From assembly GCA_037134355.1 (NCBI GenBank), contig JBAXMJ010000001.1, positions 16,951-80,950 on the forward strand: a stretch of 64,000 nucleotides of DNA. The letters are read 5' to 3'. A program made the translations under genes and the position numbers. Of the stretch, positions 1 to 6,368 are shown in pieces. This DNA is from a bacterium (GTDB lineage: Bacteria > Verrucomicrobiota > Kiritimatiellia > CAIKKV01 > CAITUY01). The notes beneath the pieces were generated by a model that saw nothing but the letters and a program-made list of their open reading frames with translations, was not told where the DNA came from and made no database searches. The number at the start of each line of letters is the position of its first letter. The first letter of the stretch is position 1.

Positions 1-669
1 GCGGGCCACAAAAATTCCCAGAACCAATAAGACCACCCCGGCCAGAAACATCACTGGCTCCCCGCTGAGCCGGAACACGGGAACAAAGGGATCGCAGCGG
101 CAGATAATGAAAGCCGAGCCGGTCGCCGCCAGCAGAACCGCCACTCCAAGGTAACCCGCGGGAATCATTCCCAACGCCACTGACACAGGACGTGGCAACC
201 GTGTTGGAAAAAGAATCATCATTTCCTGGATCGCACCGAGCGGACATACCGCGGCGCAAAATACACGCCCGAAAAACAGGGCAAACACCAGCGGAAGAAT
301 AAAAAATGCCGCCACGCTCAGGGAAAGACCGACCTCACTCCCCGACAACCAGGCGGCAACATTCTGGATAGACCCGATGGAACAGACACACCCCTTACGC
401 CAAAACCCGAAATACAGGAGAGAAAATGCCGTAAGCAGAAATACCCCGCGCCGAGATCGCTTCTTCAGGATCAGCCAGGCGGCAAGGGATAAGGCGCCGA
501 TGAGGACCACGACATCCAGCATCTCAACCGTCGCGGCCCGGGGCGGGGGCGTGGTTGTCACCGGCATGGTGTAGCCGCTCTCGAACTGCGGCTGCGGGAA
601 GCGGTTTTCAGCGAAGGCCGCGAGCACCGGCATCAGTAAATAAAGAATGAGCGCTACGGTTCTCATCAT
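1..669 (-). CDS. NapH/MauN-like membrane-bound polyferredoxin; partial, C-terminus lies beyond the window start
   Basis: My own minus-strand translation from ATG at 669/666: MRTVALILYLLMPVLAAFA signal, several TM helices, a 'FGRVFCAAVCPLGAIQE' CxxCP motif and 'CRCDPF'. The start overlaps the upstream gene's stop in an ATGA arrangement. Not in the ORF track because it runs off the window edge. Confidence 0.5.
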   Translation of the reverse strand, partial: MMRTVALILYLLMPVLAAFAENRFPQPQFESGYTMPVTTTPPPRAATVEMLDVVVLIGALSLAAWLILKKRSRRGVFLLTAFSLLYFGFWRKGCVCSIGSIQNVAAWLSGSEVGLSLSVAAFFILPLVFALFFGRVFCAAVCPLGAIQEMMILFPTRLPRPVSVALGMIPAGYLGVAVLLAATGSAFIICRCDPFVPVFRLSGEPVMFLAGVVLLVLGIFVAR

Positions 670-1307
670 GACGCCGCGCTTTCCGAGCGGGGATTCAAAA
701 GATAGGGAGCCGTCGCCGGCACCTGCCGAAAGGCGTCTGACGGGCAATTTCGGGCAATGGAACACTCATTACAATTCACACACCGGTCATGCCGGACCTG
801 CAACACAAGCGAACTGTTGCCGAAGGCCGAGCAGCCCTTGACACACCGGCCACACCCGACACATAGAGATTCATCAATGGTGTATTCGTAATAAGGCTCC
901 TCAACGAATTTCCGCCGGATCGCACCGGTTGGGCAAATCTGATTTTCGGCGGCACTGGTGAGGGTTGTAGAACCTGGCTGAAAAAACCCGAAGCACAACC
1001 GGCAATAGCCGCACTGCTTGGGCCGATGGACACACTTCACAGCGGACGCCTGTAGCACGCACTGAGTGGCGCACCGTCCGCACTGGGTACATTTGGAGGG
1101 ATCCAACTGCCAGACCTTGTGGCCCGCCGAAAGAACGGCCGACGGACACGAGGCCAAATCCGGGCAACCCTTGCAGAGTTTCCACTGGTCGGGACTGCCG
1201 GATGAGTGGCACCGGCGCCCCAGCAGGGCCCGGGCACCCATGCCAGCCAATCCGGCCAGCAAAACCCCGCGCAGAAGAGTCCTTAGAAATTCACGCCGAC
1301 TTTGCAT
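666..1307 (-). CDS. Tat-exported multi-[4Fe-4S] ferredoxin, NapG/MauM-like
   Basis: Twin-arginine signal 'MQSRREFLRTLL'; four Cys clusters (CTQCGRCATQC, CGYCRLC..CP, CVGCGRCVKGC, CVNCNEC..CP). The ORF-track N-terminal extension (1308-1379) is a translated REP element, so the start was moved to MQSRR. Confidence 0.6.
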   Translation of the reverse strand: MQSRREFLRTLLRGVLLAGLAGMGARALLGRRCHSSGSPDQWKLCKGCPDLASCPSAVLSAGHKVWQLDPSKCTQCGRCATQCVLQASAVKCVHRPKQCGYCRLCFGFFQPGSTTLTSAAENQICPTGAIRRKFVEEPYYEYTIDESLCVGCGRCVKGCSAFGNSSLVLQVRHDRCVNCNECSIARNCPSDAFRQVPATAPYLLNPRSESAAS

Positions 1308-1343
1308 GGCTCCTGTTGTTTTAACTTCATTCATCATTTTTTC

Positions 1344-1410
1344 GTAGCATGGGCGTCTCGCCCATGATTTCCTTTTCATTACCCAATCACGGGCGAGACG
1401 CCCGTGCTAC
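1344..1410. repeat. REP pair: forward copy 1344-1366 GTAGCATGGGCGTCTCGCCCATG and inverted copy 1388-1410, forming a hairpin
   Basis: Same 23-nt palindromic unit as at 2346-2469 and 3086-3108. A conserved ATTTCC follows the forward copy. Confidence 0.8.
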
Positions 1411-1411
1411 A

Positions 1412-2335
1412 TCAATACACCCTGACACCATCACCCGACGGATCGAGCACAAGAATCCGCCCCTTAGAATCCACCGCCAGATCCAACCCGACAACAGCCT
1501 TCTCCCACTCCCGTGGTCCCGACATGACCCCGGCAAACCGCCCAGACGCATCATACCGTTTCACCCGGACAATATGCTTCTCGCTTGTTACAAAGGAACC
1601 ATCGGGTGCCAGAGCCATATTGCTCGGATTGCAGCACCCGCAAAAGCCGTCGTCATCGACCGAGGCCTTGCCCCATGAAGACAAAAACTGGCCGTCGGCC
1701 GTGAAATGTTCAAGGCGATGCATACCGGGGTTGACGACCCATAGCGAGCCATCAGGGGCCGTCGCAATATCAAAGAACGCGCTGGGCACCACAAAGCCCT
1801 CCGGGCGACGGGCGGGATCCTTGTCGCCGATCCGTCCGGACACCTCGCCCGCCAAGGTGAACCGCCACACGATCCGATTCTGGCAATCTGCGATGAACAC
1901 AAAGTTTGACGAGACGGCCACGGAGGTGATCATCGTTTTCGCACTCGGGCTTTTCCAGATCGCCTTACGGGTGCCGTCCGGGCCAAAGACTTCAATATGA
2001 TTGTCCAGCCCGGAAAAGATGTCGCCATTAGCCGACACCGCAAGGGCTCGCACGGGGCCCGAAACAGTAAAGGACAACAGGGACTGGCCAAGAACATCAA
2101 GGACTTCAATGCCGGCCTTTGACCCCACGACGATCCTGTCGGATGGCCCGACGGCCAGAGCCGTCACATTGGAGAGGACTGGCTTGATCCAGCGGGATCC
2201 GGATGAAAGGAGGCCATTCGCGGAGATTTTCTTGACCCCGCAGACATCATAGCGGCAATCAGCAGGAGAGACGCACTCGTTGCATCTCGCCCCCATCGGC
2301 CAACAAGCTGTCAAGGCCAGAATGAGCGCCAAACA
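1412..2335 (-). CDS. NHL-repeat / six-bladed beta-propeller lipoprotein; 5' end disrupted by or fused to the REP array
   Basis: h-region plus lipobox 'LALILALTAC' but no in-frame ATG/GTG n-region; the best start is TTG at 2335. Repeated beta-strand-rich modules follow. The ORF track shows it in-frame with the upstream RAYT (ORF 1412..3256). Confidence 0.5.
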   Translation of the reverse strand, partial: CLALILALTACWPMGARCNECVSPADCRYDVCGVKKISANGLLSSGSRWIKPVLSNVTALAVGPSDRIVVGSKAGIEVLDVLGQSLLSFTVSGPVRALAVSANGDIFSGLDNHIEVFGPDGTRKAIWKSPSAKTMITSVAVSSNFVFIADCQNRIVWRFTLAGEVSGRIGDKDPARRPEGFVVPSAFFDIATAPDGSLWVVNPGMHRLEHFTADGQFLSSWGKASVDDDGFCGCCNPSNMALAPDGSFVTSEKHIVRVKRYDASGRFAGVMSGPREWEKAVVGLDLAVDSKGRILVLDPSGDGVRVY

Positions 2336-2345
2336 TAATTTTCCC

Positions 2346-2469
2346 GTAGCATGGGCGTCCCGCCCATGTCCCTCCTCCTCCGTAGCATGGGCGTCCCGCC
2401 CATGTCCCTCCTCCTCCGTAGCATGGGCGTCCCGCCCATGATTTCCCACGGGCGGGACGCCCGTGCTAC
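2346..2469. repeat. Tandem REP array: three forward copies (2346, 2382, 2418) with a 13-nt TCCCTCCTCCTCC spacer, plus one inverted copy (2447-2469)
   Basis: A 36-nt period repeated exactly. The core 'CATGGGCGTCCCGCCCATG' is self-complementary. Forward and inverted copies differ by G/T changes compatible with G-U pairs in RNA. Confidence 0.85.
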
Positions 2470-2470
2470 A

Positions 2471-3055
2471 AAATGAACCAACCCATCGCCAAGAATGTAA
2501 TCCGGCTACAGCAGGATTTTCCACCACATAGCGAACCTGCCTATTAAAGTCATTTTCATCACGAATCAAGTGGTCATAATACTCGGGCTGCCAAAAATCG
2601 CCGCTTCGACCCAACAGGCAATTGGCTTTTTTTGATGTAAAGGATTTCCACGAATGAAGAATGTTTGACATCATATTTCCAGAAAAAGGCCGAACAACAA
2701 CATGCACGTGATTTGGCATGATACACCATGAATAAAGGGCGTATCTCTGCCCATCAAAACACTTCAGCGCAGCTTCAACGACTGTCGCAATGCGATCCTC
2801 GCGCAACCAACATTTTCCATGACCCGCATCCAACCATTTGTCAACCCGTTCTGAGTGTAATTCCTGAAGGCGTAAATGTTCCTCGTCAGTAAGTTCTCGC
2901 CCCAACATTTTGGCGGTTTTGACAATGTCTTCACGCTCATCCCTCCATGATTTCAACACTGACGTCGGCAACGAATCGTGTAATCGGAAGGTCACAGCAT
3001 AGACGGCTCCTTCTTGCGTCCAGTGAGGCAAATAAGCACCCTGAGAAAGTTTCAC
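2471..3055 (-). mobile_element. REP-associated tyrosine transposase (RAYT, IS200/IS605-like HuH-Y1); no in-frame stop before the REP array
   Basis: HuH motif 'MPNHVHVVV', catalytic-Tyr region 'FWQPEYYDHLIRDENDF', C-terminal 'NPAVAGL..WRW' (cf. E. coli YafM). The start is uncertain: GTG at 3055 or GTG at 3088 at the REP edge. Confidence 0.75.
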
Positions 3056-3085
3056 ATCTGCAAAAGGATTATACCCATGCTTTTC

Positions 3086-3165
3086 CACGGGCGGGACGCC
3101 CGTGCTACAGATTGCATTTTCTTTATTCATCCTAAATAACTGACGTCTCGCCCGTGCTACAGATT
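3086..3165. repeat. REP copy (inverted orientation, 3086-3108) plus a degenerate partial copy at 3147-3165; a local direct repeat GCCCGTGCTACAGATT occurs twice
   Basis: Identical to the 2447-2469 copy. Lies between the RAYT start and the stop of the upstream PQQ-like gene. Confidence 0.75.
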
Positions 3166-4625
3166 CACCGCACATCCAAACACCGCATCGTTCCGAAATC
3201 CCTGACCAGAAGGCGGCCATCCGCCAAAGCAAGGGGCGCCCAGGCTTCCTTACCATCCAGCACTCTGGCTTGAGCCAACTTCTGATACCCTTCCGGAGTA
3301 GCCCGAATCATGGTCAGCATTCCCTCGTCATCCAGGATCAGCAATTTTCCGTCAGCCACCATAAAGGGACCCAGCCCGAACCGATCCAAAGCCCCGCTGG
3401 TCCAAACGACCCGTCCATCGGGGTCCATGCACACGGCCTGCTTTCGCATGGCCCCGGCATCCGCTGGCAGCACAGTGTAGAGGTAGCCCTGATAAAAGAC
3501 CGGGGTATGCTGCTCACAGGCGAAGAGTTTCTTATCCACCTTCTTCAGGAGCTTTACAGAAAATCGCTCCCCCTCCTTGAGGATCTGAAACAGGGCGCTC
3601 CCTGCGCCGTAACCGGAGGTGATCCAGAAACGGCCATCACCCACCGGAACGGGCGTCGGGGCAACAACCTGAATATTCCACAGGTCGGTCTCCCAGAGCA
3701 CGGTTCCGGTATCCTGTGCTTCCGCAGAGACTCCGACAATCCCGCCAATTGCACAATATAGATACATTTTCTTCCCGGCGAATTCCATCGGCATGACGGA
3801 GGAATGCGACATCTTCCACTTCCGGGGATTGGGTGTTTCCCATAGCACTTTACCGGTTTCGCAATCCACCCCCGCCGGCCGCACCTTGCCCCCCACCCCG
3901 AGCACCACCTGGGTTCCGTCGATCAGGGGACATTGGCCGGTGTACCACATCGGCACTTCCACGCCCCAATTCCGCTCCAGATCCAGCCCCCACTTGAGAT
4001 CACCCGTCACAGCATCGGCGCACATCACATGACAGCGGGGCCCAATGGTGACCACATAACGATCCGTCACCGCGGGAACGGTGCGTGAAATTCCATGGTT
4101 CCGTTTGATTCTGACCTTGTACGAACGCCGCCAGATTTCACGCCCATCCTCCATCGAAAAACACCGAAGCGCATCCGCGCCTGCAGCACCTTCATAATCC
4201 AATACATAAACGCATCCGTTCCGGATTGCCGGACCGGCATAGCCTTCGCCGAGCGGGATAGACCACAGGCGGGGCGGGCCCCCAACAGGCCAGGAGTTGG
4301 CCAGTTTTTCAGAAGCTGGCGCCAGGTTGTCATGAGCGGCTCCGCGAAAGGAAGGCCATGATCCCGGCGCTTGTGAGGGCACCCCGGCATATCGGGAAAA
4401 GGTTTCGCCAATCCGGACGGGAGTCTCCGCCGCCGCTGCAGCCTGATCGGCACCTGAAGATTCGCCAGCCAGAGGAATCCGCCTGGCCGTGGATACACCC
4501 GAGAGCGTCCCTCGCCACCAGAGCAACGCGACCGCCGAAAGTAGCACCCCGATCAGTACAATCAGTACGGCAGGAAGAATGCCCCTCCCTCGCTGTCCAC
4601 CCTGAAAGATACCCGGGAATGCCAT
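3165..4625 (-). CDS. PQQ-like beta-propeller repeat protein with an N-terminal membrane anchor and Ala/Pro-rich linker
   Basis: TM helix 'ILPAVLIVLIGVLLSAVALLWW'; repeated W/G-containing blade motifs; paralog of the next gene. Start moved to MAFPG. Confidence 0.6.
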   Translation of the reverse strand: MAFPGIFQGGQRGRGILPAVLIVLIGVLLSAVALLWWRGTLSGVSTARRIPLAGESSGADQAAAAAETPVRIGETFSRYAGVPSQAPGSWPSFRGAAHDNLAPASEKLANSWPVGGPPRLWSIPLGEGYAGPAIRNGCVYVLDYEGAAGADALRCFSMEDGREIWRRSYKVRIKRNHGISRTVPAVTDRYVVTIGPRCHVMCADAVTGDLKWGLDLERNWGVEVPMWYTGQCPLIDGTQVVLGVGGKVRPAGVDCETGKVLWETPNPRKWKMSHSSVMPMEFAGKKMYLYCAIGGIVGVSAEAQDTGTVLWETDLWNIQVVAPTPVPVGDGRFWITSGYGAGSALFQILKEGERFSVKLLKKVDKKLFACEQHTPVFYQGYLYTVLPADAGAMRKQAVCMDPDGRVVWTSGALDRFGLGPFMVADGKLLILDDEGMLTMIRATPEGYQKLAQARVLDGKEAWAPLALADGRLLVRDFGTMRCLDVR

Positions 4626-4639
4626 AAGTTCAAGCGATC

Positions 4640-5848
4640 CTACTTGCCCAGATTCAGCGCAATAAGAGTCCCTTTGCTGTTGCGACAGTACAGAACACCC
4701 CGGCACAAGACCGGCGCCGTCCAGCAGGTTTTCTCCAACACTTTACGGGCAGAGGACACCTCTTCATATTTTTCAGGCGACGCCTTGATAATGAACAAAT
4801 CTCCATTTTCATTCAGGGCAATCAGGTGATTCCCCGCTGCTGAGAGCGACCCGAACCCGATGTTCTGACTCCATTTCTCAACGCCAGTTTTGAAATCCAT
4901 GCATTTCAGGGAACCGCCTCCCACATTACCATCGAACCCGTACAAAAACCCGTTGATCAGCACACAACTACTGAACTGGTTCTTCATGGTCTTGTTCTTC
5001 CAGACCTCTATGGGTGCCGGGCCCCGGACATCAATAACGGCGCCCGCGTTGTTATACCCAGAGGAAATGAACATGAGCCCGTCCGATACAATCGGGTCGG
5101 CCGCATTGACATCATACGAGGTCTTCCAGGGAATAGACCAGAGCTTGACACCCGTTTCCAGATCGACGCCATACAGTTCCTTTGCGCTGAACAAGGCCAG
5201 GCACTCCTTCCCTCCCGCAGAGAACTCAACTGGTGCGGCATACCCCCCTGTCCCTCCCGGACTGGACCATACTTTGGCGCCGGTATTCCGGTTCAAGACC
5301 ACCCCGTATTCACCTGCATTCACCAACAACATGTCGCCCTTGATCACCGGCGATCCGGAGAATCCCCACCCCAGGTTAACGGCACCGAATTCCTTCATCA
5401 GATTCTTGTTCCACTTGACCTCGCCGGTTACCGCATCCAGGCACAACAACAGTCCTACACGGCTCAGGGAATAGACCAGTTTGCCGTCCGTGGCGGGAGT
5501 AGCGCGCGGTCCGGGATAACTCCCCGCCTCGCACGGATAGGAATGTTTCCATAACGCCTTTCCATCCTTCAGGGAAAGGGCGTAAATCGTGTCTGTATTA
5601 TCCTTATTTCCAAAGGCAAACAGCCTGTCGCCCTTGATGGAAACGGCGGAATAACCCTCTCCGACTTCTGCTTTCCACAGGATTTTCGCTCCACCTTGAA
5701 GCGCAAGCGGATTCCATTGGGTTTCCCTGGAGATCCCGTCACGATTCGCCCCGCGGAACTGAGGCCAGTCATAGACCTCTGAACCTTGCACATGACCCGC
5801 AACAATCCATCCCGCCAACCCGATTGCCGTCATAGTCTTGAAACGCAT
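4640..5848 (-). CDS. Secreted PQQ-like beta-propeller repeat protein
   Basis: Signal peptide 'MRFKTMTAIGLAGWIVAGHVQG'; repeated blade motifs (WxxxxG...). Tandem paralog of 3165-4625. Confidence 0.6.
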   Translation of the reverse strand: MRFKTMTAIGLAGWIVAGHVQGSEVYDWPQFRGANRDGISRETQWNPLALQGGAKILWKAEVGEGYSAVSIKGDRLFAFGNKDNTDTIYALSLKDGKALWKHSYPCEAGSYPGPRATPATDGKLVYSLSRVGLLLCLDAVTGEVKWNKNLMKEFGAVNLGWGFSGSPVIKGDMLLVNAGEYGVVLNRNTGAKVWSSPGGTGGYAAPVEFSAGGKECLALFSAKELYGVDLETGVKLWSIPWKTSYDVNAADPIVSDGLMFISSGYNNAGAVIDVRGPAPIEVWKNKTMKNQFSSCVLINGFLYGFDGNVGGGSLKCMDFKTGVEKWSQNIGFGSLSAAGNHLIALNENGDLFIIKASPEKYEEVSSARKVLEKTCWTAPVLCRGVLYCRNSKGTLIALNLGK

Positions 5849-5897
5849 AATCGCCCTCCTGTTTGATCCGCCTCTGTTTCTACTAAAAGGTCTCACA

Positions 5898-6368
5898 CTA
5901 GAGGATTTCGATTATGATTACGATTAAGATTATGAGGCAATTCGACGACGTACTGGGCGAACAGGAACTCCACCCGGTGCCGGTCGCTGGGAAACGCTTC
6001 GGCCCGGTAACACCGACCACGGCTCGATCTAACTCCGCATGGGCCTTCACCAGTTTCGGCGGCATCGCCACGGGATCGTGCAAGTCGGCCAGCGTTGAAC
6101 CCGGGAATTCCTTCCGGACATCCAGAACTTTCTGCGCCGTCGCTTCCACCGCCGTTTTCTGCTTCTTCGTCACCGCCTGCGGCCAGGGGAGTTGTTGTAG
6201 ACGATGTCCTTGGAGTAATGTTCCGTTCATAACCTGTCTCGAACCATCACCATCGTTAGCAAATGTTATTTGTTCCGATGTGAACCCGTACGGCCTCCAT
6301 TTGTCCGAACGTCGAAAGTCAGGGTCCGAGCGGAACGCGAGGTAACCTGGACTTTCTGGTTCGATCAC
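5898..6368 (-). pseudogene. Fragment of an N6-adenine DNA methyltransferase (RM-system C-terminal region), truncated
   Basis: 'TLADLHDPVAMPPKLVKAHAELDRAV' matches the conserved C-terminal tail of type I/IIG DNA MTases. The upstream and downstream parts are non-homologous and low-complexity. Confidence 0.45.

What the first reader, a model, noticed from the sequence alone, without database searches (positions are those of the whole stretch)
1412..3256. RAYT lacks a stop codon and reads in-frame through three REP copies into an NHL lipoprotein whose signal n-region is missing
The ORF track shows one 614-aa frame. The RAYT domain ends at about 2471. The REP array is then translated (CSTGVPPVGNHGRDAHATEEEGHGRDAHATEEE...) and joins directly onto 'KLCLALILALTAC', which is the h-region and lipobox of a lipoprotein signal peptide. 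No in-frame ATG or GTG lies upstream of that h-region; the only candidate start is a TTG at 2335, which would leave a 9-residue pre-Cys peptide. Either REP proliferation destroyed both the transposase stop and the lipoprotein's 5' end, or a genuine RAYT-REP-lipoprotein fusion is expressed. Both REP copies that flank the RAYT are translated in the same frame as '..CSTGVPPV..'.
Basis: seen in the sequence. Interest (0 to 1): 0.5.

Follow-up and report, generated by a model that had tools for sequence, protein, structure and literature searches.

The report
Transposase cassette fused in-frame onto host gene
A small mobile cassette (a REP-associated transposase gene with its hairpin repeats) landed between two operon genes, deleted the start of the downstream gene and now forms one continuous reading frame with it; a second assembly confirms the fusion, and this transposase family turns out to sit in-frame in dozens of other host genes.

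Summary
One open frame runs on the minus strand from 3256 to 1412.

What is shown:
- It is a mosaic. An 815-bp REPtron (RAYT plus REP hairpins, 3160-2346) sits where REP-free relatives have a 10-nt spacer between a PQQ-propeller gene and an NHL-propeller gene.
- The insertion removed the NHL gene's Shine-Dalgarno sequence, ATG and first codons. Relatives start MSGTGKL; the window keeps TGKL.
- This RAYT family has no stop of its own before its 3' REPs, and the REP is stop-free in 5 of 6 frames. The RAYT frame therefore runs through four REPs into NHL.
- It is not a sequencing error. An independent assembly (L132/P0285) carries the same fusion with a 33-nt, frame-keeping difference in the REP array. 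Its cassette has no SNPs, while its flanks differ by 5-8%.

What is inferred: the fusion is translated, and the NHL signal segment lets the propeller still be exported.

Wider context: the same RAYT clade lies in-frame inside many host proteins, including Sua5 (33 clusters, old and co-inherited), AlaRS, ValRS, LeuRS, UvrA, CarB and pseudopilins. I found no description of this in the literature I could search.

The parts
3165..4625 (-). Upstream operon gene, a PQQ-like beta-propeller (486 aa). Its C-terminus ...TMRCLDVR is intact and its stop is TGA 3167-3165.
   Evidence: It is 92% identical to the L001 PQQ486 gene over residues 1-486. It gives weak BamB/PQQ family hits and sits in the same operon position.
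2346..3160 (-). The whole REPtron insertion, 815 bp from GTAG to CTAC. Its order is: degenerate REP, 5' REP, RAYT, then a 3' REP array. It is absent from all orthologous loci.
   Evidence: Repeats were mapped. Empty sites L001/L005/L004 were read, and no REP occurs in L001-L009. RAYT GC3 is 0.45 against 0.64-0.67 in the neighbouring genes. The element has 0 SNPs against L132.
3138..3160 (-). Degenerate REP copy (GTAGCACGGGCGAGACGTCAGTT) at the left edge, 4 nt after the PQQ stop codon.
   Evidence: It matches the REP pattern with 3 mismatches. The 17-nt stretch CGCCCGTGCTACAGATT is repeated at 3097-3113 and 3149-3165 (family D3).
3173..3175 (-). Candidate start ATG of the chimeric ORF. It overlaps the end of the PQQ gene by 11 nt, which suits translational coupling. 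A second candidate is ATG 3130-3128.
   Evidence: The gene call of P0285 starts here, with MCGESVARARRQLFRMNKEN.
3056..3108 (-). 5' REP (3086-3108, GTAGCACGGGCGTCCCGCCCGTG) with its decayed inverted partner (3056-3079). Together they read as CSTGVPPVEKHGYNPFAD.
   Evidence: Homologues carry a full REPIN-coded GTGVPPVxxHGQDGHAT at this position.
2471..3055 (-). RAYT core (Y1/HuH tyrosine transposase). The HuH motif PNHVHVV is at 2716-2696 and the Tyr motif YVVENP is at 2530-2513.
   Evidence: Pfam Y1_Tnp scores 25.5 bits against a cutoff of 23. NCBIfam REP_Tyr_transpos scores 76.3 bits against a cutoff of 80. The only PDB match is 4ER8, E. coli TnpAREP, at E 1.8e-6 with both motifs aligned. The family has 3743 homologues and 11860 representatives.
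2418..2469 (.). 3' REPIN: a forward REP at 2447-2469 (-) and an inverted REP at 2418-2440 (+), 6 nt apart. It is translated as CSTGVPPVGNHGRDAHAT.
   Evidence: Inverted repeat I8 is 91% complementary. It forms the long hairpin in the RNA fold.
2346..2417 (+). Two further 36-nt tandem units. Each is a GGAGGAGGAGGGA spacer plus a REP (REPs at 2382-2404 and 2346-2368). In the ORF frame each reads EEEGHGRDAHAT.
   Evidence: Tandem Repeats Finder reports period 36, 2.7 copies, 100% matches, family D1. L132 has one REP fewer and a 16-nt spacer, a net difference of 33 nt.
2336..2347 (-). Junction codons ACG GGA AAA TTA (T-G-K-L). These are the retained residues 4-7 of the ancestral N-terminus MSGTGKL. 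The AC of ACG is also the end of the last REP (CTAC).
   Evidence: Orthologue N-termini are listed and the L001/L005 DNA is.
2303..2341 (-). Hydrophobic signal or anchor segment with a lipobox-like LTAC (KLCLALILALTAC). Inside it are an in-frame TTG at 2332 and another at 2314.
   Evidence: The cysteine is not conserved in the closest orthologues.
1412..2302 (-). NHL-repeat beta-propeller (mature part) with its stop TGA at 1414-1412.
   Evidence: Pfam NHL scores 26 bits against a cutoff of 20. Orthologues are up to 82-88% identical. Pairwise dN/dS is 0.13-0.17, and my terminal-branch estimate from those pairwise values is about 0.16.
1344..1410 (.). A second insertion: a REPIN (1344-1366 on + and 1388-1410 on -) placed exactly between the NHL stop and the ferredoxin start. 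In relatives these two genes overlap by ATGA.
   Evidence: Inverted repeat I1. Compare L001 5880-6060 with window 1480-1250. There are 0 SNPs against L132 over 1465-1297.
666..1334 (-). Downstream operon gene, a Tat-signal 4Fe-4S ferredoxin (MMNEVKTTGAMQSRREFL...).
   Evidence: Ferredoxin family hits. It is 92% identical to the L001 Fer4 gene.
2311..2481 (-). Out-of-frame 56-aa ORF across the REP array. Each 36-nt unit offers GGAGGAGGAGGGAC followed by ATG, which resembles a strong ribosome-binding site plus start codon. The ORF ends at TGA 2313-2311, which overlaps the in-frame TTG 2314 in a TTGA arrangement.
   Evidence: No function was tested.

Best explanation
SHOWN. A REPtron is a RAYT tyrosine-transposase gene bracketed by GTAG-tagged REP hairpins. 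One of these, about 815 bp with foreign base composition, lies in a conserved operon: PQQ-propeller, PQQ-propeller, NHL-propeller, Tat-ferredoxin and further genes. It occupies the place where relatives have only a 10-nt spacer between the second PQQ gene and the NHL gene. The insertion replaced the NHL gene's Shine-Dalgarno sequence, its ATG and its first 2-3 codons.

RAYTs of this clade carry no stop codon of their own upstream of the 3' REPs. The REP sequence is stop-free in 5 of its 6 frames, and the array unit is 36 nt. As a result the RAYT frame continues through one REPIN and two further REP units (45 codons) and enters NHL at codon 4 (T-G-K-L) in phase.

The chimeric ORF is a true feature of the genome. 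A second, independently assembled lineage has it as well.

INFERRED.
- Ribosomes start at ATG 3175 or 3130, coupled to termination of the PQQ gene. They translate the RAYT and, finding no stop, continue into NHL. The product would be about 570-590 aa: a cytoplasmic RAYT, an acidic His-rich REP-coded linker, a hydrophobic signal or anchor segment, and the NHL propeller.
- With its own start gone, this read-through is the main route by which NHL is still made.
- The hydrophobic segment can still take the propeller across the membrane. If the LTAC lipobox is used, signal peptidase II would then cut the propeller free of the RAYT part.
For: ORF and repeat anatomy.

Empty sites. Loci L001, L002, L003, L005 and L006 have PQQ stop, 10 nt (L004 has 20 nt), then ATG of NHL, and an ATGA overlap between NHL and Fer4. 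None of L001-L009 contains the REP. Orthologue N-termini read MSGTGKL... where the window reads ...HATGKL.

Family habit. Among 178 proteins with this RAYT core, the tail after the conserved W.W is 10 aa or less in only 60. Many of the longer tails I inspected read into REP-coded TGVPPV..HGxDxHAT or stop in VARASRP + TGA.

Not an artefact. P0285/L132 comes from another sequencing run and was seen in 2 samples. It is 97% identical over 572 aa, with an identical RAYT and a 33-nt in-frame indel in the array.

Recent spread. There are 0 SNPs over 3165-2232 and 4 SNPs down to 1890, against 5.5-8% divergence in the flanks (P about 1e-23). RAYT GC3 is 0.45 against 0.64-0.67 in the neighbours.

NHL is not an old pseudogene. 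It has 310 intact codons and dN/dS of about 0.13-0.17.

The RAYT looks intact. The HuH and Tyr motifs are present and align to 4ER8.

Translation through REP-RAYT-REP happens elsewhere.
- 33 Sua5 clusters have YrdC + RAYT + Sua5_C in one frame, and the RAYT part diverges in step with the host parts.
- ValRS, LeuRS, AlaRS, UvrA, CarB and helicases are split in-frame by the RAYT.

N-terminal analogues. P0308 and P0302 have RAYT-REP fused directly upstream of a prepilin cleavage motif.
Against: - There is no expression data of any kind.
- None of the candidate starts has a good Shine-Dalgarno sequence.
- The in-phase junction has a prior of about 1 in 3. The array unit (36 nt) and the GGA slippage (3 nt) keep the frame automatically, so the shared frame in two lineages does not prove selection.
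- All three frames are open across the array except for the GTAG stop.
- The insertion is young (0 SNPs, foreign GC3), so purifying selection may simply not have acted yet.
- The low dN/dS mostly reflects time before the insertion.
- A 13-residue hydrophobic segment lying about 275 residues inside a protein is not a proven export signal.
- The REP array folds very stably as RNA (-99.7 kcal/mol, z -6.6) and could impede ribosomes.
- The lipobox cysteine is not conserved among orthologues.
Confidence: 0.6

Rival explanations
1. Recent, functionally dead accident. The REPtron insertion knocked out NHL expression, the in-phase junction is chance, and any fusion polypeptide is non-functional or degraded. 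The allele persists only because it is young or because NHL is dispensable.
For: - The chance of an in-phase junction is about 1 in 3.
- The REP is open in 5 of 6 frames, so read-through needs no selection.
- The cassette has 0 SNPs and foreign GC3, so it is young.
- In a relative (L008) the whole NHL N-terminal region has been deleted and rearranged, so this junction is unstable.
- No ribosome-binding site precedes any in-frame start.
Against: - The allele, together with part of NHL, is shared between two lineages that differ by 5-8% in the flanks. That is not expected for a clearly deleterious knockout.
- The NHL frame is fully intact in both lineages.
- Many in-frame RAYT insertions in essential genes are demonstrably maintained over long times.
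- If the RAYT is translated at all, the genetic code forces read-through into NHL.
Confidence: 0.27
2. NHL is still made as a separate protein from an internal start. Candidates are TTG 2332 (MALILALTAC...) or GTG 2449. Initiation might be helped by termination and re-initiation after the small out-of-frame ORF that the SD-like GGAGGAGGAGGGA-ATG units could drive.
For: - In-frame TTG 2332, TTG 2314 and GTG 2449 exist.
- Some orthologues have very short, uncharged N-termini, such as P0127 MSILTAVLILMMCW and P0133 MINILLVVLAWLACC.
- Each 36-nt unit carries a strong SD-like motif followed by ATG. That ORF ends at TGA 2313-2311, which overlaps TTG 2314.
Against: - TTG 2332 leaves only 9 residues before the Cys, 3 fewer than the shortest orthologue. 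It has no charge and no Shine-Dalgarno sequence within 35 nt.
- TTG 2314 and ATG 2296 would give a protein without any signal segment.
- GTG 2449 lies inside the REPIN stem.
- The gene caller for L132 did not call a separate NHL gene.
Confidence: 0.1
3. Sequencing or assembly artefact. A missed base or a collapsed repeat removed a real stop codon between RAYT and NHL.
For: The region contains a perfect 36-nt tandem repeat and short homopolymers (T4 before GTAG, A4 after the last REP). A 1-nt shift before GTAG would create TAG.
Against: An independent assembly from another run (L132) has the identical sequence through both junctions. It differs only by a 33-nt indel. Changes in repeat copy number come in 36-nt or 3-nt steps and cannot change the frame.
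Confidence: 0.03

Closest known systems
REPtron / RAYT-REPIN system (E. coli TnpAREP, PDB 4ER8). Sources: Di Nocera 2013, PMC3733652, and Quentin 2018, PMC6006769; from my own memory also Nunvar 2010, Bertels & Rainey 2011 and Ton-Hoang 2012.
   Same: It has a Y1/HuH transposase with NHVH and YxxxNP motifs. It is flanked by GTAG-tagged GC-rich hairpins, some paired as REPINs, and there is only one RAYT in the 64 kb window. Like the published elements, it is embedded in host transcription units and appears to depend on read-through.
   Different: Published RAYTs are described as free-standing genes. Quentin 2018 discarded over-long proteins as 'gene fusions or annotation errors'. Here the RAYT ORF has no terminator of its own and is continuous with a host gene. 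In the wider clade it lies in phase inside host proteins on both sides.
Intragenic REPs and Rickettsia palindromic elements. Di Nocera 2013 (PMC3733652) reports the highest numbers in Opitutus terrae (Verrucomicrobia), in uvrA, tRNA synthetase and helicase genes. Ogata 2000 is cited in that paper.
   Same: Palindromic repeats are inserted in phase and translated as 20-80 extra residues. The same host gene classes are affected, and REPs also occur at ORF N-termini.
   Different: Those inserts are the hairpin repeats alone. Here the insert includes the whole transposase gene (about 270 codons), and in this locus it replaces the host gene's start rather than decorating a loop.
ORF fusions caused by small repeats and MITEs (review by Delihas 2011, PMC3184786).
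   Same: A mobile repeat with an open frame joins a chromosomal ORF, and it is uncertain whether the fusion is stable or transient.
   Different: Here the fusion partner is a full enzyme domain. The arrangement recurs across dozens of hosts, and in Sua5 it is conserved over deep divergence.
Inteins and homing-endonuclease genes (comparison from my own general knowledge).
   Same: Selfish nuclease-type genes sit in phase inside conserved housekeeping proteins. In this locus flanking DNA was co-transferred with the element between lineages.
   Different: I saw no splicing motifs at the junctions, which are REP-coded peptides. Nothing indicates that the insert is removed from the protein, and no homing activity was shown.
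IS200/IS605 insertion sequences (TnpA Y1).
   Same: They share the catalytic fold and motifs and have subterminal hairpins. The foreign base composition and the identical copies in diverged lineages suggest mobility or recent transfer.
   Different: There is no tnpB. The ends are inverted REPs rather than same-strand left-end and right-end hairpins. No multiple copies were seen in the window.

Membership tests
RAYT (REP-associated tyrosine transposase, TnpAREP) | HuH motif and catalytic Tyr motif in a Y1 fold | tested here: met
   PNHVHVV is at 2716-2696 and YVVENP at 2530-2513. Both align to E. coli TnpAREP 4ER8 at E 1.8e-6. Pfam Y1_Tnp scores 25.5 bits against a cutoff of 23.
RAYT (REP-associated tyrosine transposase, TnpAREP) | Score above the curated NCBIfam REP_Tyr_transpos cutoff | tested here: inconclusive
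   The score is 76.3 bits against a cutoff of 80, at E 2.1e-21. Sources name the homologues 'REP element-mobilizing transposase RayT'.
RAYT (REP-associated tyrosine transposase, TnpAREP) | Gene flanked by the REP sequences it is associated with | tested here: met
   REPs lie at 3138-3160 and 3086-3108 on the 5' side and at 2447-2469, 2418-2440, 2382-2404 and 2346-2368 on the 3' side.
RAYT (REP-associated tyrosine transposase, TnpAREP) | Single copy per genome with a dispersed REPIN population | not testable with these tools
   Only 64 kb is available. It holds one RAYT, and all REP copies lie within 1344-3160. The exact 23-mer is widespread in metagenome contigs, with more than 120 hits.
REP / REPIN (GTAG family) | 5' GTAG followed by a short GC-rich hairpin, with pairs in inverted orientation | tested here: met
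   The sequence is GTAG + CACGGGCG-TCC-CGCCCGTG. There are REPINs at 2418-2469 and 1344-1410. The RNA fold has z -6.6.
Bacterial lipoprotein (SPII substrate) | Lipobox [LVI][ASTVI][GAS]C at the end of an N-terminal signal peptide | tested here: inconclusive
   L-T-A-C fits the lipobox. However, the segment is not N-terminal in the ORF, the n-region is gone, and the cysteine is absent from the closest orthologues P0121-P0129.
NHL-repeat beta-propeller | NHL repeat profile match and full-length similarity to the orthologous family | tested here: met
   Pfam NHL scores 26 bits against a cutoff of 20. There are 2844 homologues, up to 82% identity over the whole length.
Intein | N- and C-terminal splicing motifs (Cys/Ser/Thr at +1, and His-Asn before a nucleophile) | tested here: not met
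   The junctions of the in-frame RAYT inserts are REP-coded peptides (GTGVPPV....HGQDxHAT) joined directly to host sequence. This was checked by eye only.

The most novel reading that the evidence does not exclude
REPtrons of this RAYT clade may be 'translationally open' cassettes whose normal mode of life is to sit in phase inside host genes and be expressed as part of the host protein. Hosts seen here include Sua5/TsaC, AlaRS, ValRS, LeuRS, UvrA, CarB, helicases and DNA methylases.

When such a cassette lands at the N-terminus of an exported protein, as with NHL here and the pseudopilins P0308 and P0302, the host's own signal or prepilin peptidase would separate transposase and cargo. The host gene would survive and the RAYT would gain expression signals.

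The SNP-free tract shared by two 5-8% diverged lineages would then mark active spread of a tolerated or favoured allele.
Probability: 0.35. Interest if true: 0.85.

Novelty: new variant of a known kind. Interest (0 to 1): 0.68.

Why it matters
RAYTs are treated as free-standing, single-copy, 'domesticated' transposases, and REPs as extragenic elements. Three things follow if the picture here holds.

- This locus shows a whole REPtron welded in phase to a host gene.
- Following it up shows the same clade embedded in phase in dozens of host proteins, including essential ones. At least one insertion (in Sua5) has been kept open over deep divergence. That implies routine translation through REP hairpins, transposase domains carried inside housekeeping enzymes, and a way for a promoter-less mobile gene to borrow expression from its host.
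- It matters for annotation, because such genes are currently split, mis-started or discarded as errors. It matters for how operons tolerate insertions, and for any model of how RAYT activity is regulated.

Tried and rejected
- **Sequencing error.** Rejected after finding L132/P0285.
- **Exact look-ups of window proteins.** The 614-aa and 587-aa fusion ORFs, PQQ486 and Fer4 are not on record. The source genome is therefore not in that collection.
- **Junction 27-mer in metagenome contigs.** No match.
- **RAYT in viral contigs.** No match.
- **Rfam on window 1-6000.** Nothing reached a gathering score.
- **Promoter and terminator scan.** No sigma-70-like site on the minus strand. The only terminator-like hit is a plus-strand REP at 1348.
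- **REP-like target at the NHL start.** The orthologue start ATGAGCGGGACG equals the REP's ATGGGCGGGACG with one mismatch. Only 3 such hits occur in 92 kb and 2 of them are this site. The wider 41-nt comparison is not better than shuffles (1882 of 2000 reach it). I leave this as an unexplained curiosity.
- **Frame conservation of the 3' REP.** All three phases occur at the RAYT 3' end in the family, so I do not read the 3' tail as a conserved protein feature.
- **Old pseudogene for NHL.** Rejected by dN/dS of about 0.13-0.17, although this cannot date the insertion.
- **Tool caveat.** The word-indexed searches did not list P0285, although it is 97-100% identical. It surfaced only.

Full report
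**1. The observation**

On the minus strand one frame is open from ATG 3256 to TGA 1412, a length of 614 aa. It contains three parts.
- A Y1/HuH transposase domain. Pfam Y1_Tnp scores 25.5 bits and NCBIfam REP_Tyr_transpos scores 76.3 bits against a cutoff of 80.
- A run of translated palindromic repeats.
- An NHL-repeat protein (Pfam NHL).

The repeat is GTAG + CACGGGCG-TCC-CGCCCGTG and its CATG variant. The pattern has 15 matches in the 64 kb window against none in shuffles, and all lie within 1344-3160.

On the minus strand the order of features is as follows:
- PQQ-type propeller gene, with stop TGA at 3167-3165
- a degenerate REP at 3160-3138
- ATG 3130
- a REP at 3108-3086 with a decayed partner
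- the RAYT core, 3055-2471
- a REP at 2469-2447, inverted against a REP at 2418-2440
- two more 36-nt units, each a GGAGGAGGAGGGA spacer plus a REP, down to 2346
- ACG GGA AAA TTA TGT TTG..., which reads TGKLCLALILALTAC
- the NHL propeller, ending with the stop at 1414-1412
- a REPIN at 1410-1344
- a Tat-signal ferredoxin gene

- The in-frame TTG is at 2332.
- An in-frame GTG exists at 2449.
- Four REP units are read through, not three.
- The first 27 codons of the 614-aa frame merely overlap the end of the PQQ gene.

**2. What the locus looked like before**

The NHL part has close orthologues, up to 82% identity and about 317 aa. I recovered several of their loci. They all share one operon: PQQ(402) - PQQ(486) - NHL(318) - Fer4(222) - Fer4_5(422) - PQQ(578) - a NuoF-like protein.

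In L001 and L005 the PQQ stop is followed by 10 nt containing GGGAGGA. Next comes ATG AGC GGG ACG GGT AAA CTG, which reads MSGTGKL. L004 has a 20-nt spacer. NHL and the ferredoxin gene overlap by ATGA.

None of these nine loci contains the REP.

The window therefore carries two insertions:
- an 815-bp RAYT+REP cassette (a REPtron) in place of the spacer, the Shine-Dalgarno sequence, the ATG and the first codons of NHL
- a 67-bp REPIN placed precisely between the NHL stop and the ferredoxin start

The window's ...HAT-GKL keeps residues 4-7 of the ancestral MSGTGKL. This explains the 'missing n-region'.

The lipobox reading is weak. LTAC fits the consensus, but the closest orthologues have VWC, AWL, VWW or AWR at that position. 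The segment is best called a signal or anchor.

**3. Why the RAYT has no stop**

The RAYT belongs to a very large family, with 3743 word-index hits. The exhaustive search found 11860 representatives at E<=1e-3 and 849 at E<=1e-30.

I examined 178 members with a recognisable core. HuH and Tyr motifs are kept in 177. The ORF ends within 10 residues of the conserved W.W in only 60. In many of the others I inspected it reads on into REP-coded peptide (TGVPPV..HGxDxHAT), or it ends in VARASRP where the REP supplies TGA.

The REP is stop-free in 5 of its 6 frames; only the frame that reads the TAG of GTAG is closed.

So no stop was 'destroyed'. This clade normally terminates wherever the flanking DNA happens to provide a stop. 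Here the 3' flank is a stop-free REP array followed by a host ORF in the same phase.

**4. Is it real?**

Yes. P0285 (576 aa) surfaced. It comes from a different sequencing run (Logan SRR21524760) on a contig seen in two samples. It is the same chimeric ORF:
- It is 97% identical over 572 aa.
- The RAYT is 100% identical.
- It has five substitutions near the NHL C-terminus.
- It has an 11-codon gap in the REP-coded linker.

At the DNA level L132 has two reverse REPs with a 16-nt GGA-rich spacer, instead of three REPs with 13-nt spacers. The net difference is 33 nt, so the frame is kept.

The SNP pattern between the two assemblies is striking:

| Window region | SNPs against L132 |
|---|---|
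| PQQ gene, 3820-3165 | 36 in 655 nt (5.5%) |
| 3165-2232 (cassette and start of NHL) | 0 |
| 2231-1890 | 4 |
| 1889-1466 | 25 |
| 1465-1297 (around the REPIN) | 0 |
| Ferredoxin gene onward | about 8% |

The probability of 0 SNPs in 933 nt at the background rate is about 5e-23.

The cassette plus the 5' half of NHL, and separately the REPIN, were therefore exchanged recently between lineages that are otherwise 5-8% apart. The low GC3 of the RAYT (0.45 against 0.64-0.67) also marks it as a recent arrival.

**5. Is NHL still in use?**

The NHL frame is intact. Pairwise dN/dS against three orthologues is 0.13-0.17, and my terminal-branch estimate from those values is about 0.16. It is therefore not an old pseudogene. 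Because the insertion is young, this figure says little about selection since the insertion.

The possible independent starts are poor:
- TTG 2332 leaves nine uncharged residues before the Cys and has no Shine-Dalgarno sequence.
- TTG 2314 and ATG 2296 give a protein with no signal segment.
- GTG 2449 lies inside the REPIN stem.

If the RAYT is translated at all, ribosomes must run on into NHL. ATG 3175 overlaps the PQQ stop by 11 nt, which suits coupling to PQQ translation.

My best model is a polypeptide made of a cytoplasmic RAYT, an acidic His-rich linker, a hydrophobic segment and a periplasmic propeller, possibly cut at the lipobox. All of this is inference.

**6. The wider pattern**

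Following the family led well beyond the window.

*Sua5.* A search with P0055 found 33 protein clusters of 430-582 aa that carry YrdC (PF01300), Y1_Tnp (PF01797) and Sua5_C (PF03481) in one frame. In 25 full-length members the RAYT part has median pairwise identity 0.68. The two Sua5 parts have 0.72 and 0.67. The distances are correlated about as well as the two Sua5 halves are with each other. This is an old, co-inherited insertion that has been kept in phase, with REP-coded linkers on both sides.

RAYT-less close relatives carry a single REPIN-coded peptide (GLGFQPSEVIGRDADAT) at exactly that site.

*Other hosts.* In the exhaustive search, 56 of 147 top cluster representatives are 400 aa or longer, and in most of them the RAYT is an internal stretch. 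Clustering at 50% identity inflates this share, because every host forms its own cluster. Pfam on 20 of them shows the following hosts:
- ValRS, LeuRS and another class-I synthetase
- AlaRS, at two or more different sites
- CarB and UvrA
- DinG-type helicases
- a chorismate-binding enzyme and a TPP enzyme
- several restriction-modification methylases

*DNA-level cases.* Two metagenome loci that carry the exact REP and a RAYT homologue are also in-frame insertions. One lies in an alaS gene and one in a helical-repeat protein. Both are bounded by GTAG...CTAC.

*Closest analogues of the window's case.* In P0308 and P0302, RAYT-REP is fused directly upstream of a prepilin cleavage and methylation motif. 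P0308 reads ..NRG|FTLAEVLVA and has an N_methyl hit at 261-284 plus T2SS-J. P0302 reads ..AAG|LTLIELIV. In those two proteins and in the window, the host protein's N-terminus is one that a peptidase normally removes.

**7. What is known**

- Intragenic, in-phase GTAG REPs have been described. The highest numbers are in the verrucomicrobium Opitutus terrae, in uvrA, tRNA-synthetase and helicase genes. 'REPtron' is the published name for RAYT plus REPs (Di Nocera 2013, PMC3733652).
- ORF fusions caused by small repeats are reviewed by Delihas 2011 (PMC3184786).
- I found nothing in the searchable library that describes whole REPtrons in phase with or inside host genes. This is absence of evidence within that library only.

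**8. Verdict**

The finding is a true chimeric gene made by a REPtron insertion. It is not an assembly error, and it is not a case of a lost stop codon. Whether the fusion protein is functional remains untested.

As a single locus it is a moderately interesting insertion event. As the visible tip of a recurrent and apparently undescribed habit of this RAYT clade, it deserves follow-up.

Noticed in passing
L008 2552-4852 (Verrucomicrobiota MAG CAZOZF010000049.1): In this relative the PQQ(486) and NHL genes form one 766-aa ORF (...TMRCLDVR|YDVGVVKK...). The stop, the spacer and the whole NHL signal region are deleted between two similar motifs (..CLDVR* and ..AECRYDV). The NHL propeller can apparently ride on the PQQ protein's own signal, and this junction is prone to rearrangement.
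   Followed up: partly
Proteins P0241-P0275; relatives P0279, P0281, P0287, P0290, P0291: 33 clusters of Sua5/TsaC carry a RAYT inserted in phase between the YrdC and Sua5_C domains. The RAYT part diverges in step with the host parts. RAYT-less close relatives keep a single REPIN-coded peptide (GLGFQPSEVIGRDADAT) at the same site. That could be a 'solo REPIN' left by deletion, or a REPIN that was there before the RAYT.
   Followed up: partly
L062 (JABAOC010018528.1), about 3950-4650; proteins P0294, P0295, P0337, P0349, P0380: RAYT+REPs are inserted in phase inside alanyl-tRNA synthetase, at two or more different sites (a beta-barrel loop, and between ..VRVLTMG and FSMELCGGTHV in the editing domain). 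The C-terminal part of the L062 copy looks frameshifted. P0337 (1232 aa) is intact.
   Followed up: partly
Proteins P0326-P0380: The same RAYT clade lies in phase inside ValRS, LeuRS, CarB, UvrA, DinG-type helicases, a chorismate-binding enzyme, a TPP enzyme and many restriction-modification methylases. 56 of 147 top cluster representatives are 400 aa or longer.
   Followed up: partly
Proteins P0308 and P0302: RAYT-REP is fused directly upstream of prepilin-type cleavage and methylation motifs (G|FTLAEVLVA and G|LTLIELIV). As in the window, the host N-terminus is one that a peptidase removes.
   Followed up: partly
window 1344-1410: A REPIN sits exactly between the NHL stop and the ferredoxin start, replacing the ancestral ATGA overlap. 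Both ORFs are preserved, but their translational coupling is broken. The tract 1465-1297 is SNP-free against L132.
   Followed up: partly
window 3165-1890 compared with L132: The recombination tract has its left edge within 13 nt of the cassette's left end (SNPs at 3176 and 3186). It extends about 450 nt into NHL on the right. This asymmetric co-transfer of flanking DNA with the element has no explanation yet.
   Followed up: partly
L001/L005 5001-5012 compared with window REP: In REP-free relatives the NHL start ATGAGCGGGACG equals the REP's ATGGGCGGGACG with one mismatch. The array spacer GGAGGAGGAGGGA resembles the ancestral Shine-Dalgarno sequence GGGAGGA. This could be microhomology at the insertion site, or coincidence.
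   Followed up: partly
window 2311-2481 (minus strand): Each 36-nt array unit carries a strong SD-like GGAGGAGGAGGGA followed 1 nt later by an ATG in another frame. This gives a 56-aa ORF that ends at a TGA overlapping an in-frame TTG of NHL (a TTGA arrangement). It might drive small-ORF translation or ribosome pausing within the fusion.
   Followed up: no
L010-L129: The exact 23-nt REP occurs in more than 120 metagenome contigs from many environments, but only 2 of 120 fetched loci carry a RAYT. 20 of 140 REP copies lie in a frame open for at least 100 aa on both sides, for example in ORFs of 2504, 1570, 1315 and 1172 aa.
   Followed up: partly
searches compared: The word-indexed protein search did not list P0285 when queried with the window's own RAYT or NHL parts, although P0285 is 97-100% identical. 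It appeared only in a search with a 56%-identical relative. A negative result from that tool is therefore not proof of absence.
   Followed up: no
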